DNA of 64,000 nucleotides, taken from assembly GCF_057098645.1 (NCBI RefSeq), contig NZ_CM169472.1. One strand, 5' to 3'. Position numbers and translations under genes: made by a program. Each line of letters begins with the position of its first letter. Position 1 is the first letter of the stretch. The notes under the pieces were generated by a model. The model saw nothing but the letters and a program-made list of their open reading frames with translations, searched no databases and was not told the DNA's origin. This document shows positions 10,919 to 13,992 of the stretch, piece after piece.

Positions 10919-12238
10919 ATGGATATCTGCTCCCGAAACGAGAAATTAGCGATTAGAAGACCAGCGATACTGGTTGCACTGGCACTTTTACTGTGTAGTT
11001 GTAAAAGCACGCCTCCAGAGTCCATGGTGACACCACCAGCAGGTTCAAAGCCACCAGCCACGACGCAACAATCGTCACAACCGATGCGTGGCATCTGGCT
11101 GGCCACGGTGTCTCGCCTCGACTGGCCACCGGTTTCCTCGGTTAACATTAGTAACCCCACCAGCCGGGCCCGTGTACAACAACAGGCGATGATCGACAAA
11201 CTGGATCATCTGCAACGTCTCGGTATAAACACGGTCTTTTTCCAGGTCAAGCCGGACGGTACCGCCCTGTGGCCTTCAAAAATTTTGCCATGGTCCGATC
11301 TTATGACCGGTAAGATTGGTGAAAATCCGGGTTACGATCCGCTGCAATTTATGCTCGACGAAGCCCACAAGCGTGGGATGAAAGTACACGCCTGGTTTAA
11401 CCCCTATCGCGTATCGGTTAATACGAAGCCCGGTACTATCAGGGAACTGAATAGCACTCTGTCTCAACAACCGGCGAGCGTCTATGTGCAACACCGTGAC
11501 TGGATCAGAACGTCTGGCGATCGCTTTGTCCTCGACCCGGGCATCCCTGAGGTTCAGGACTGGATCACATCAATAGTCGCAGAAGTGGTTTCCCGCTATC
11601 CGGTAGATGGCGTGCAGTTTGACGACTATTTCTATACTGAGTCACCGGGTTCACGGCTAAATGATAACGAAACGTACCGTAAATACGGAGGCGCATTTGC
11701 GTCAAAAGCAGACTGGCGGCGCAACAATACTCAGCAGTTAATTGCAAAGGTATCGCACACCATTAAAAGCATTAAGCCGGGAGTCGAATTTGGTGTTAGC
11801 CCGGCAGGCGTGTGGCGTAACCGATCACACGATCCGCTCGGTTCCGATACCCGAGGCGCGGCAGCCTATGACGAATCCTACGCTGACACCCGTCGATGGG
11901 TGGAACAAGGATTGCTGGATTACATTGCTCCCCAAATTTACTGGCCGTTCTCACGGAGTGCCGCGCGTTATGACGTGTTGGCAAAATGGTGGGCGGATGT
12001 CGTTAAACCGACCAGGACCCGCCTGTATATCGGTATCGCCTTCTATAAAGTGGGTGAACCTTCAAAGATAGAGCCAGACTGGATGATTAACGGCGGCGTA
12101 CCGGAACTGAAAAAGCAGCTCGATCTTAACGATGCGGTACCAGAAATTAGCGGCACCATCTTGTTCCGTGAGGACTATCTGAATAAACCGCAGACTCAAC
12201 AAGCGGTCAGCTATCTGCAAAGTCGTTGGGGCAGTTAA
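10919..12238 (+). CDS. yddW: Lipoprotein YddW (glycoside-hydrolase-like family)
   Basis: 439 aa ORF with lipoprotein-type signal (LLLCSCK). Confidence 0.85.
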   Translation: MDICSRNEKLAIRRPAILVALALLLCSCKSTPPESMVTPPAGSKPPATTQQSSQPMRGIWLATVSRLDWPPVSSVNISNPTSRARVQQQAMIDKLDHLQRLGINTVFFQVKPDGTALWPSKILPWSDLMTGKIGENPGYDPLQFMLDEAHKRGMKVHAWFNPYRVSVNTKPGTIRELNSTLSQQPASVYVQHRDWIRTSGDRFVLDPGIPEVQDWITSIVAEVVSRYPVDGVQFDDYFYTESPGSRLNDNETYRKYGGAFASKADWRRNNTQQLIAKVSHTIKSIKPGVEFGVSPAGVWRNRSHDPLGSDTRGAAAYDESYADTRRWVEQGLLDYIAPQIYWPFSRSAARYDVLAKWWADVVKPTRTRLYIGIAFYKVGEPSKIEPDWMINGGVPELKKQLDLNDAVPEISGTILFREDYLNKPQTQQAVSYLQSRWGS

Positions 12239-12609
12239 ACTCCCATTCTTACTTTGTAACAAGCCGGTACATTACCCACCGGCTTGTTACCCTCTTGAAC
12301 TATCCCACTACTAATCATGCTTACTAAAGTCAAATTAACCATGCAATTAACCACACTTAGTTAAACAGCCATAAATCCCCTAATAAAAATGTATGAATAT
12401 GAAAAACCATACGATATTCGCTGTCACCGAAAAATAATTACGATGGGCTATACTCTTCTGAAGAACAGTAGCGTAGATTGAAACTGTCCTAAGTCGCTTA
12501 TTTCTTTTCAGTATATCTTCATATTTCAGGAGAATATGGTGCAGTTAGTCGATCTCGCACGTTGCGTTTTGATTCCGTCTGATTTCCCAGCCTTATAAGA
12601 GTGTGAATT

Positions 12610-13992
12610 ATGGAGATGTATTTTAAAAGAATGAAAGATGAGTGGACCGGACTTGTCGAACAGGCAGATCCGCCCATTCGTGCTAAAGCCGCGGAAATTG
12701 CCGTTGCGCATGCTCATTATCTGAGTATCGAGTTTTATCGAATTGTCCGCATCGACCCGCATGCCGAAGAATTCTTGAGTAATGAACAAGTTGAGCGGCA
12801 GTTGAAAAGTGCGATGGAACGCTGGATTATTAACGTGCTTTCTGCCCAGGTTGACGATGTCGAAAGGCTAATACAAATCCAGCATACCGTCGCGGAAGTG
12901 CATGCCCGCATAGGAATTCCGGTAGAAATTGTCGAGATGGGGTTTCGGGTGCTGAAAAAGATCCTCTATCCGGTAATCTTCTCTTCGGATTATTCTGCCG
13001 CAGAAAAACTTCAGGTCTACCATTTCTCGATTAACAGTATTGATATCGCTATGGAAGTGATGACCCGCGCGTTTACCTTTAGTGACAGTAGTGCCTCAAA
13101 AGAAGATGAAAACTATCGTATCTTCTCGTTACTGGAAAACGCCGAAGAAGAAAAAGAACGGCAAATAGCCTCAATACTTTCATGGGAAATAGATATCATC
13201 TATAAAATCCTGCTGGATTCTGATTTAGGCAGTAGTTTGCCTTTAAGCCAGGCTGATTTTGGCCTGTGGTTTAACCATAAAGGTCGACATTATTTCAGCG
13301 GCATTGCTGAAGTGGGCCATATCTCTCGTCTGATTCAGGATTTCGACGGTATTTTCAATCAAACAATGCGTAACACCAGGAATTTGAATAACAGAAGTCT
13401 GCGGGTGAAATTTTTATTACAGATAAGAAATACTGTATCGCAAATTATTACCTTGCTGCGTGAATTGTTTGAAGAAGTATCGCGCCACGAAGTCGGTATG
13501 GATGTACTGACGAAATTACTTAACCGCCGTTTCCTGCCGACTATCTTCAAACGCGAAATTGCCCATGCCAACCGGACCGGTACACCGCTGTCAGTGCTGA
13601 TTATTGACGTTGATAAATTCAAAGAGATCAACGATACGTGGGGCCATAACACTGGCGATGAAATTCTGCGTAAAGTCTCTCAGGCCTTTTATGACAACGT
13701 CCGCAGTAGTGATTATGTTTTCCGCTACGGGGGCGATGAATTTATCATTGTTTTGACTGAAGCTTCTGAAAACGAAACGTTACGTACCGCAGAACGTATT
13801 CGCAGTCGGGTGGAGAAAACCAAACTGAAATCCGCAAACGGCGAGGATATTGCCCTCTCACTTTCCATCGGTGCCGCCATGTTTAATGGTCATCCTGACT
13901 ATGAGCGCCTCATTCAAATAGCCGATGAAGCTCTGTATATCGCCAAAAGACGAGGTAGAAACCGTGTTGAACTCTGGAAAGCCAGTCTTTAG
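12610..13992 (+). CDS. dosC: Globin-coupled diguanylate cyclase DosC
   Basis: 460 aa; N-terminal globin sensor, C-terminal GGDEF domain (RYGGDEF). Confidence 0.9.
   Translation: MEMYFKRMKDEWTGLVEQADPPIRAKAAEIAVAHAHYLSIEFYRIVRIDPHAEEFLSNEQVERQLKSAMERWIINVLSAQVDDVERLIQIQHTVAEVHARIGIPVEIVEMGFRVLKKILYPVIFSSDYSAAEKLQVYHFSINSIDIAMEVMTRAFTFSDSSASKEDENYRIFSLLENAEEEKERQIASILSWEIDIIYKILLDSDLGSSLPLSQADFGLWFNHKGRHYFSGIAEVGHISRLIQDFDGIFNQTMRNTRNLNNRSLRVKFLLQIRNTVSQIITLLRELFEEVSRHEVGMDVLTKLLNRRFLPTIFKREIAHANRTGTPLSVLIIDVDKFKEINDTWGHNTGDEILRKVSQAFYDNVRSSDYVFRYGGDEFIIVLTEASENETLRTAERIRSRVEKTKLKSANGEDIALSLSIGAAMFNGHPDYERLIQIADEALYIAKRRGRNRVELWKASL

What the first reader, a model, noticed from the sequence alone, without database searches (positions are those of the whole stretch)
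12536..12598. Possible 20-codon upstream ORF 11 nt ahead of dosC
A short ORF ([20 protein letters not shown]) with a strong Shine-Dalgarno (AGGAGA, 5 nt spacing) ends 11 nt before the dosC start, in an otherwise AT-rich leader. It could be a leader peptide or translational coupling element for the oxygen-sensing dosCP operon, or an unannotated small protein.
Basis: seen in the sequence. Interest (0 to 1): 0.4.

Follow-up and report, generated by a model that had tools for sequence, protein, structure and literature searches.

The report
Frameshifted allele of small gene yddY
The 20-codon ORF ahead of dosC is real, but it is a 5-bp-deletion allele of yddY, a small E. coli gene already shown to be translated; its peptide is not conserved, so any role is more likely in cis on dosC translation than as a protein.

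Summary
The ORF (12536-12598, [20 protein letters not shown]) exists as described and ends 11 nt before dosC. It is not new. It shares its Shine-Dalgarno, start codon and first 11 codons with yddY (b4746) of E. coli K-12, a 13-aa protein detected by chromosomal tagging and induced at low Mg2+ through PhoQP. Relative to K-12, the window lacks 5 bp in a T-run. This shifts the frame, lengthens the ORF to 20 codons and moves its stop onto the dosC ribosome-binding site.

By match length, among 5,426 complete E. coli genomes:
- about 57% carry the 13-codon form
- about 23% carry the 20-codon form
- about 20% carry a deletion running from inside yddY into dosC

In four other Escherichia lineages the SD and start are kept, but a stop follows after 2-3 codons. 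Outside Escherichia the element is absent. The peptide is therefore young and unconstrained.

Folding predicts a helix masking the dosC start. A ribosome terminating at the 20-codon stop would melt it (opening cost 13 to 3 kcal/mol). A ribosome at the 13-codon stop would barely do so. The helix has no covariation support and is not exceptional among genes in the window.

The parts
12449..12454 (+). Inferred -10 element TATACT within the invariant block GGGCTATACTCTTC (12445-12458). It resembles a sigma-S -10 with C at -13. The implied transcription start is near 12461.
   Evidence: The block is invariant in 8 Escherichia sequences. A promoter upstream of yddY is shown by a PhoQP-dependent reporter in K-12 (PMC11429745). 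The exact TSS is not verified: no TSS paper was found, and the sigma-70 consensus scan found nothing.
12528..12533 (+). Shine-Dalgarno AGGAGA (core AGGAG, 12528-12532) of yddY.
   Evidence: Read from the sequence. Identical in K-12 and in four non-coli Escherichia lineages.
12536..12598 (+). yddY, 20-codon allele ([20 protein letters not shown] plus TAA). Codons 1-11 are identical to K-12 YddY and codons 12-20 are frameshifted.
12539..12541 (+). In-frame GTG, an alternative start codon 6 nt after the AGGAG core (near-optimal spacing). In E. albertii this codon is ATG.
   Evidence: Sequence and alignment. The spacing argument rests on established knowledge of SD spacing, not on a test made here.
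12545..12547 (+). TTA (Leu4). The homologous codon is the stop TAA in the non-coli Escherichia lineages. This change extended a 2-3 codon mini-ORF into yddY.
12567..12570 (+). T-run that marks the site of the 5-bp deletion. K-12 has GCGTTTCATTTTGA and the window has GCGTTTTGA. The deletion is derived, because the outgroups carry the long form GCGTTTCGTTTTTCGA.
12596..12601 (+). TAAGAG: the yddY stop codon (12596-12598) overlapping the SD-like element of dosC. Most E. coli have TAAGGG. The A at 12600 is rare: only 31 genomes match the window's 85-nt stretch (12528-12612) at 99% identity or better.
12501..12531 (+). 5' arm of a predicted long-range helix (UUUCUUUUCAGUAUAUCUUCAUAUUUCAGGA).
   Evidence: Present in the MFE folds. 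Duplex energy is -24.4 kcal/mol, matched or beaten by 4 of 1000 shuffles. No covariation.
12601..12632 (+). 3' arm of the predicted helix. It covers the dosC start codon (12610) and the first 7 codons.
12610..13992 (+). dosC (diguanylate cyclase DosC), the gene downstream of yddY on the same strand.

Best explanation
The ORF is the E. coli small gene yddY, carried in the 5' leader of the dosC-dosP mRNA.

Sequence history. The window holds a derived allele in which a 5-bp deletion in a T-run shifts the frame after codon 11. The product changes from the 13-aa K-12 form (…CVSF) to a 20-aa form (…[11 protein letters not shown]). The stop moves from 37 nt to 11 nt upstream of the dosC ATG, onto the TAA of the dosC SD-like TAAG(G/A)G.

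Translation. The translation-initiation region is identical to that of K-12 over 42 nt upstream of the ATG (12494-12535), the only leader difference being G/A at 12493. The ORF is therefore very probably translated in this strain too.

The peptide. It is probably not the functional entity. The ORF arose in E. coli by a TAA-to-TTA change in a 2-3 codon mini-ORF. It tolerates a frameshift in about a quarter of genomes, and it showed no knockout or overexpression phenotype in K-12.

Proposed consequence (inferred, not shown). In this allele yddY translation is coupled in cis to dosC. A ribosome reaching the yddY stop unwinds the 3' arm of a leader helix that masks the dosC start, and it terminates 11 nt upstream of the dosC ATG, so it can reinitiate or hand over there.

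Sub-confidences: identity with yddY 0.97; translated in this strain 0.85; peptide sequence unimportant 0.75; real cis coupling to dosC in this allele 0.35.
For: Identity with yddY: K-12 annotates yddY at the homologous position. The alignment shows an identical SD, ATG and 11 codons, plus the 5-bp indel.

Translation of yddY in K-12:
- SPA-tag immunoblot, PMC6001520 Table 1
- low abundance, bioRxiv 10.1101/511675
- Ribo-RET start-site reads at least 3-fold up at low Mg2+, and a PhoQP-dependent promoter reporter, PMC11429745

Derived state of the deletion: four outgroups carry the long form.

Allele frequencies: about 3,120 long-form genomes, about 1,230 short-form and about 1,080 deleted, out of 5,426.

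Peptide unconstrained:
- Outgroup ORFs are MVP*, MVL*, MVR* and MM*.
- Against the outgroups, the ORF body is 54-64% identical, while the leader is 85-93% and the SD plus start 93-100%.
- Amino-acid polymorphisms R9H and C10R occur within E. coli.
- No Pfam or NCBIfam family matches.
- Deletion and overexpression had no effect.

Coupling:
- No terminator lies between yddY and dosC.
- The helix appears in the MFE of all E. coli alleles examined.
- The duplex is -24.4 kcal/mol, z = -3.3 against shuffles.
- A ribosome at the yddY stop lowers the cost of opening the dosC initiation region from 13.1 to 3.1 kcal/mol (window) and from 17.1 to 5.2 (main 20-codon allele). In 13-codon alleles it falls only to 9.7-18.2.
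Against: - No experiment addresses the 20-codon allele or any effect of yddY on DosC.
- The TSS is inferred, not mapped.
- The helix has no compensatory changes. Substitutions in it are mostly disruptive (10 broken cells against 2 one-sided changes), and it drops out of the MFE in two outgroups.
- In absolute energy the duplex is matched or beaten by 10 of 48 control gene starts. The opening cost of the dosC start is upper-quartile, not exceptional.
- Part of the predicted drop in opening cost is trivial, because the modelled ribosome footprint overlaps the dosC initiation region.
- YddY is a low-abundance product, so few ribosomes may traverse the ORF.
- The commonest allele (13 codons) and the outgroups would lack this coupling. 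It therefore cannot be the conserved role of the element.
Confidence: 0.5

Rival explanations
1. Neutral leader translation. The SD-like AGGAG and the ATG/GTG recruit some ribosomes to the dosCP leader. The resulting peptide (2, 3, 13, 20 or 57 codons, depending on lineage) is a by-product with no function in cis or in trans. The 5-bp deletion is a neutral slippage polymorphism.
For: - ORF length varies freely between and within species.
- The ORF body is the least conserved stretch of the leader.
- K-12 shows no phenotype and low protein abundance.
- The helix lacks covariation and is unexceptional.
- The deletion lies between TTT repeats, a typical slippage context.
Against: - The SD plus start is 93-100% identical across four other Escherichia lineages, while the adjacent ORF body is 54-64%.
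- The second codon is always start-capable (GTG or ATG).
- The short allele is at about 23% frequency, so it is not a rare lesion.
- With four non-independent outgroups the conservation signal is only modest.
Confidence: 0.3
2. The conserved CAGGAGAAUAUG is primarily an RNA-protein or RNA-RNA site. One candidate is a CsrA GGA site presented in the loop of a small hairpin (UCAUAUUU-CAGGA-GAAUAUGG), paired with a second GGA at the dosC start (AUGGAG). Under this reading the ORF is incidental, or CsrA and ribosomes compete for the site.
For: - GGA sits in the loop of the predicted local hairpin, and the motif is invariant in Escherichia.
- yddV (dosC) mRNA is up-regulated in a csrA51 mutant (PMC4844966).
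- From my own knowledge, not checked here: other diguanylate cyclase genes (ycdT, ydeH) are direct CsrA targets. Jonas et al. 2008 could not be opened.
Against: - The hairpin is weak (-3.9 kcal/mol, z = -0.44).
- The two GGA motifs are about 83 nt apart, which by my recollection is beyond the usual span bridged by a CsrA dimer.
- No binding data were found.
- This reading does not exclude translation, which is shown experimentally in K-12.
Confidence: 0.12
3. YddY is a trans-acting small protein with its own target, for example in the PhoQP low-Mg2+ response, and the 13-aa and 20-aa forms are functional variants.
For: The protein was detected in K-12 and is induced at low Mg2+ in a PhoQP-dependent way. 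The first 11 residues are shared by both alleles.
Against: - Sister species lack the ORF.
- A frameshift of the C-terminal part is at 23% frequency.
- Nonsynonymous polymorphism occurs within 13 codons.
- The protein is not membrane-associated, and deletion or overexpression has no phenotype.
- No protein family matches.
Confidence: 0.06
4. Translation of the leader ORF protects the dosCP transcript from premature Rho-dependent termination, as in the mgtA/mgtL and corA leaders that also respond to Mg2+.
For: The promoter is induced at low Mg2+. A conserved pyrimidine-rich stretch, GAUUCCGUCUGAUUUCCCAGCC, lies inside the 20-codon ORF and just after the 13-codon stop.
Against: There is no clear C>G skew: the minimum GC skew in the leader is -0.07. 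No experimental link was found. The idea comes only from analogy.
Confidence: 0.03

Closest known systems
yddY (b4746, YP_009518783.1) of E. coli K-12 MG1655
   Same: Same locus (between digH/yddW and dosC, same strand), identical SD, ATG and first 11 codons, and the same upstream leader apart from one SNP.
   Different: A 5-bp deletion gives 20 aa instead of 13, with a different C-terminus (LIPSDFPAL instead of SF). The stop is TAA 11 nt before dosC instead of TGA 37 nt before it. RefSeq does not annotate the gene in this strain.
Translational coupling through an upstream ORF that unmasks a structured start. Classic examples are the MS2 coat-replicase long-distance interaction and termination-reinitiation between closely spaced bacterial cistrons (from established knowledge).
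   Same: The upstream ORF ends 11 nt before the downstream start, on its SD. A predicted long-range helix covers the downstream start and would be melted by the terminating ribosome.
   Different: Nothing is shown experimentally. The helix lacks covariation. The property belongs to one allele only and is absent from the K-12 form and from sister species.
Mini-ORFs and 'start-stop' elements in bacterial leaders, seen as retapamulin or Onc112 initiation peaks (from established knowledge of the Ribo-RET literature)
   Same: The non-coli Escherichia versions are 2-3 codons long (MM*, MVP*, MVL*, MVR*) behind a conserved SD. If the second codon is the real start, E. albertii has ATG-TAG, a literal start-stop.
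   Different: The window's version is a 20-codon ORF. No ribosome data exist for the mini-ORF versions.
Regulatory leader peptides of Mg2+-responsive operons (mgtL, mgtP, corA leader ORFs)
   Same: A short ORF in a leader whose promoter responds to low Mg2+ via PhoQP.
   Different: No conserved sensing codons, no terminator or antiterminator alternative, no rut-like composition, and a reading frame that is not conserved.

Membership tests
yddY (E. coli K-12 small protein gene b4746) | Located between digH (yddW) and dosC, on the same strand as dosC | tested here: met
   the gene order gadC-digH-[ORF]-dosC-dosP is the same in the window and in K-12.
yddY (E. coli K-12 small protein gene b4746) | Same ribosome-binding site and start codon, and a homologous coding sequence | tested here: met
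   AGGAGAATATG and codons 1-11 are identical at the nucleotide level.
yddY (E. coli K-12 small protein gene b4746) | 13-aa product [13 protein letters not shown] | tested here: not met
   the window encodes 20 aa because of a 5-bp deletion. It is an allele of the gene, not the same protein.
yddY (E. coli K-12 small protein gene b4746) | Protein product detectable | not testable with these tools
   Shown only for the K-12 allele (PMC6001520; 10.1101/511675; Ribo-RET in PMC11429745).
Translationally coupled upstream ORF (termination-reinitiation or RBS unmasking) | Upstream stop codon within a few nucleotides of, or overlapping, the downstream ribosome-binding site | tested here: met
   TAA at 12596-12598 is the TAA of TAAGAG, 11 nt before the dosC ATG. 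In K-12 the gap is 37 nt.
Translationally coupled upstream ORF (termination-reinitiation or RBS unmasking) | Downstream start sequestered in a structure that upstream translation opens | tested here: inconclusive
   The helix is predicted, and the opening cost falls from 13.1 to 3.1 kcal/mol with a ribosome at the stop. However, there is no covariation and the masking is not exceptional.
Translationally coupled upstream ORF (termination-reinitiation or RBS unmasking) | Downstream protein synthesis depends on upstream ORF translation | not testable with these tools
   Needs reporter fusions with yddY start, SD and stop mutants.
Attenuator-type leader peptide | Alternative terminator/antiterminator structures controlled by ribosome position | tested here: not met
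   no intrinsic terminator-like site in 12150-12700; no Rfam cis-regulatory family.
Attenuator-type leader peptide | Conserved regulatory codons or arrest motif in the peptide | tested here: not met
   the frame is truncated to 2-3 codons in sister species, and the ORF body is only 54-64% identical.
CsrA-regulated leader | GGA motifs, at least one in a hairpin loop and one overlapping the target's initiation region | tested here: inconclusive
   The motifs are present (CAGGA in a hairpin loop, AUGGAG at the dosC start), but the hairpin is weak and the motifs are about 83 nt apart.
CsrA-regulated leader | Direct CsrA binding and CsrA-dependent expression | not testable with these tools
   The only indirect evidence is that yddV mRNA is up in csrA51 (PMC4844966).

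The most novel reading that the evidence does not exclude
yddY is a natural allelic series of one upstream ORF: 2-3 codons in sister species, 13 codons in most E. coli, 20 codons in about 23%, and a 57-codon chimera in dosC-deleted strains. In this series, ORF length sets how strongly leader translation is coupled to synthesis of the oxygen-sensing diguanylate cyclase DosC. A common 5-bp slippage polymorphism would then tune c-di-GMP signalling between E. coli lineages. It would also document the birth of a translated small ORF from a conserved mini-ORF by loss of a stop codon.
Probability: 0.2. Interest if true: 0.5.

Novelty: already known. Interest (0 to 1): 0.25.

Why it matters
The gene itself adds nothing new. 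yddY is catalogued, and its 20-aa form already sits in databases as a hypothetical protein.

The comparison made here does add something. A validated E. coli 'small protein' has no conserved peptide, originated recently by stop-codon loss, and is frameshift-polymorphic at high frequency. This is a caution against reading tagged or ribosome-profiled small ORFs as functional proteins.

It also offers a cheap natural experiment, 13-codon against 20-codon alleles, on whether leader translation controls DosC, one of the main diguanylate cyclases of E. coli.

Tried and rejected
1. 'An initiating ribosome at the yddY start opens the dosC-masking helix.' This would have explained the conserved SD and start in species that have only a mini-ORF. 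Constraint folding rejects it: the cost of opening the dosC initiation region is unchanged or higher with the start occupied (13.1 to 14.1 and 15.1 to 18.5 kcal/mol).

2. Covariation support for the long-range helix: none (0 compensatory pairs).

3. The helix as an outlier among genes: no. Ten of 48 control starts have duplexes at least as stable, and 23% have an equal or higher opening cost.

4. The local GGA hairpin as a significant structure: no (z = -0.44).

5. Known RNA family: the Rfam scan gave only a sub-threshold rli61 hit on the digH terminator region.

6. Protein family: no Pfam or NCBIfam hit.

7. Sigma-70 promoter and intrinsic terminator scans of 12150-12700: nothing. The -10 I propose is a sigma-S-like reading by eye plus conservation.

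8. Literature search for a mapped dosC/yddV TSS, CsrA binding to dosC, or PhoP control of dosC: nothing usable. Jonas et al. 2008 and the journal version of Weaver et al. are not held. The supplements of the two key papers are not held.

9. Rho/rut hypothesis: no C>G skew.

10. Single or recurrent origin of the 5-bp deletion: SNP distances among 7 haplotypes do not decide.

Full report
**1. What is in the sequence**

Window 12536-12598 (+) holds an ATG-initiated ORF of 20 codons plus TAA, encoding [20 protein letters not shown]. It lies in the 371-nt gap between a 439-aa ORF (10919-12238) and a 460-aa ORF (12610-13992). These are digH (yddW) and dosC, followed by dosP. The window is 100% identical in this region to E. 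coli O145 strain RM9872.

AGGAGA is at 12528-12533. The stated spacing of 5 nt is wrong for the ATG, which is 2 nt from AGGAGA and 3 nt from the AGGAG core. Five nt fits the in-frame GTG at 12539. From established knowledge of SD spacing, 3 nt is well below the optimum, while 6 nt from AGGAG is near it. The second codon may therefore be the true start. In E. albertii that codon is ATG. Published Ribo-RET counts used a 4-20 nt window and cannot separate the two candidates.

**2. It is a known gene**

The curated K-12 record NC_000913.3 annotates yddY (b4746, 13 aa) at the homologous position. The alignment shows that the window and K-12 share the SD, the ATG and the first 11 codons. The window lacks 5 bp inside a T-run: K-12 reads GCGTTTCATTTTGA and the window reads GCGTTTTGA. 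The frameshift replaces …CVSF* (TGA, 37 nt before dosC) with …[11 protein letters not shown] (TAA, 11 nt before dosC).

Published evidence on YddY in K-12:
- It was detected as a chromosomally SPA-tagged 13-aa protein (PMC6001520 Table 1).
- It was among the least abundant small proteins compared on the immunoblot (bioRxiv 10.1101/511675).
- It was one of 17 small ORFs whose start-site Ribo-RET signal rises at least 3-fold at low Mg2+.
- Its upstream region drives a PhoQP-dependent reporter.
- It is not membrane-associated, and deletion or overexpression gave no phenotype (PMC11429745).

RefSeq/PGAP does not annotate the gene in RM9872 or in the other genomes sampled. The exact 20-aa sequence is nevertheless already present in public protein collections as 'hypothetical protein', on at least 1000 contigs.

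**3. Distribution within E. coli**

I searched 5,426 complete genomes with both alleles as queries (85 nt and 90 nt, from the SD to the dosC ATG). The two searches gave reciprocal, consistent classes by match length and identity:

| Class | Genomes | Share |
|---|---|---|
| 90-nt form (13-codon) | about 3,120 | 57% |
| 85-nt form (20-codon) | about 1,230 | 23% |
| Deletion from inside yddY into dosC | about 1,080 | 20% |

Only 31 genomes match the window's 85-nt stretch at 99% identity or better. Every short-form row sampled in the K-12-query search (15 of 15) differs from K-12 only by the 5-bp gap, so these carry TAAGGG rather than the window's TAAGAG at the dosC SD.

I translated seven fetched alleles:
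- two encode the 20-aa product (window, CFSAN061769)
- five encode 13-aa products, with R9H or C10R variants among them

The classes rest on alignment length and identity bands, not on translating every genome.

**4. Evolution**

DosC-anchored loci from one genome per species show that four non-coli Escherichia lineages keep CAGGAGAATATG. They are E. albertii, E. whittamii and two divergent 'E. coli' records. In all four a stop follows at codon 3 or 4, giving MM*, MVL*, MVP* and MVR*. E. coli has TTA (12545-12547) where they have TAA. Upstream of dosC in Citrobacter, Kluyvera, Phytobacter, Enterobacter and Trabulsiella, nothing homologous is present.

The outgroups carry the long form at the indel site, so the window's 5-bp deletion is derived.

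Identity between the window and the outgroups, by segment:

| Segment | Identity |
|---|---|
| 5' leader (12460-12527) | 85-93% |
| SD plus start (12528-12541) | 93-100% |
| ORF body (12542-12566) | 54-64% |
| 12567-12609 | 74-86% |
| First 26 nt of dosC | 96% |

The peptide is therefore young and unconstrained. The initiation site looks conserved, although with four related outgroups this is only a modest signal.

**5. Leader anatomy and mechanism**

The block GGGCTATACTCTTC (12445-12458) is invariant in all eight Escherichia sequences. It reads as a sigma-S-type -10 element (TATACT with C at -13). I infer a TSS near 12461, but I found no mapped TSS. No terminator lies between yddY and dosC, so co-transcription is inferred.

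MFE folds of the leader pair 12501-12531, just 5' of and running into the yddY SD, with 12601-12632, which holds the dosC ATG and first codons. The pairing appears in every E. coli allele examined and in two outgroups, but not in the other two. The duplex has 25 bp and -24.4 kcal/mol. Four of 1000 dinucleotide shuffles do as well.

Three results weigh against the helix:
- 10 of 48 other gene starts in the window have duplexes at least as stable in the same geometry.
- There are no compensatory substitutions, and most substitutions break pairs.
- The cost of opening the dosC initiation region (13.1 kcal/mol) is upper-quartile, not extreme: controls average 10.3 ± 3.3.

I then tested two coupling models by constraint folding.

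*Ribosome on the yddY start.* This does not lower the opening cost (13.1 to 14.1; K-12 15.1 to 18.5). I reject the idea that initiation alone unmasks dosC.

*Ribosome at the yddY stop.* This lowers the cost to 3.1 (window) and 5.2 (main 20-codon allele). In 13-codon alleles it falls only to 9.7-18.2, and the outgroups show no reduction. Part of this drop is trivial, because the modelled footprint overlaps the dosC site.

Together with the stop lying on the dosC SD 11 nt from the ATG, termination-reinitiation or unmasking is a coherent prediction for this allele only. It is an inference, not a demonstration.

**6. Rivals**

- **Neutral leader translation (0.3).** It fits the free variation in ORF length, the lack of phenotype and the weak structural evidence.
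- **A CsrA site (0.12).** It is suggested by GGA in a small hairpin loop and by the rise in yddV mRNA in a csrA51 mutant. The hairpin is weak and no binding data were found.
- **A trans-acting peptide (0.06).** Unlikely given the evolution of the ORF.
- **Rho anti-termination (0.03).** It has no compositional support.

**7. Verdict**

The object is the known gene yddY in a common frameshifted allele. The 'unannotated small protein' reading is out of date, the 'leader peptide' reading is unsupported, and the 'translational coupling' reading remains plausible for this allele but is untested.

Novelty: already known. Interest is low to moderate. It rests on the allelic series as a natural test of upstream-ORF coupling and as an example of a validated small protein without a conserved peptide.

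Noticed in passing
window 12570-13827 (absent in L088, CFT073, and in L003, JCM 5491): About 1,080 of 5,426 E. coli genomes carry a compound deletion (window 12570-13250 and 13296-13827, leaving a 45-bp island). It removes the 3' part of yddY and most of dosC. The yddY SD and start then head a 57-codon chimeric ORF ([19 protein letters not shown]…SASFK), annotated in UTI89 as hypothetical protein UTI89_C1704, which ends 96 nt before dosP. Loss of DosC in many strains is already noted in the literature (PMC5635171). The chimeric ORF driven by the yddY start is not discussed there.
   Followed up: partly
window 12600: The window has A where K-12, the six other E. coli alleles examined and all four outgroups have G (TAAGAG against TAAGGG). 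This weakens the dosC SD-like element. Only 31 genomes match the window's 85-nt stretch (12528-12612) at 99% identity or better. Whether the variant is linked to the 5-bp deletion for functional reasons is unknown.
   Followed up: partly
window 12391-12412: A perfect inverted repeat GTATG-N12-CATAC lies inside a block (about 12384-12460) that is nearly invariant across Escherichia, 37-58 bp upstream of the inferred -10. It is a candidate transcription-factor site (PhoP or another factor) for the yddY-dosCP promoter. No convincing PhoP box was seen by eye.
   Followed up: no
window 12333-12344: A 12-bp tandem duplication (AATTAACCATGC next to AATTAACCAC) is present in the window and in the five other E. 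coli alleles aligned, but absent from K-12. It lies in the poorly conserved part of the digH-yddY gap.
   Followed up: no
window 12258-12288: An 11-bp perfect hairpin (AACAAGCCGGT…ACCGGCTTGTT) lies 20 nt after the digH stop and has no T-run. It is probably the digH terminator or a stabiliser, and it is conserved as a structure. The outgroups keep the GCCGGTG…CACCGGC core with changed flanks. The only Rfam hit, sub-threshold (rli61, E = 0.3), falls here.
   Followed up: no
L086 and L087 (strains 14EC020, WP8), homologous to window 12502-12598: In these alleles a C-to-G change at window 12504 creates a TTG-initiated 33-codon ORF with no SD, in the frame that ends at the conserved TAA 11 nt before dosC. 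The same change breaks a C-G pair of the predicted long-range helix without compensation.
   Followed up: no
window 12389-12481: A second small ORF (30 codons, MYEYEKPYDIRCHRKIITMGYTLLKNSSVD) overlaps the inferred promoter. It has no SD, and its ATG is ACG in three of the four outgroups, so it is probably spurious.
   Followed up: partly
K-12 L001 (yddY codons 12-14: TCA TTT TGA): The 13-codon allele ends in UUU UGA. On this sequence a +1 slip of tRNA-Phe would re-pair perfectly (UUU) and add DSV*. This is a formal resemblance to the prfB frameshift site, but there is no upstream SD at the right distance, and I regard it as coincidence.
   Followed up: no
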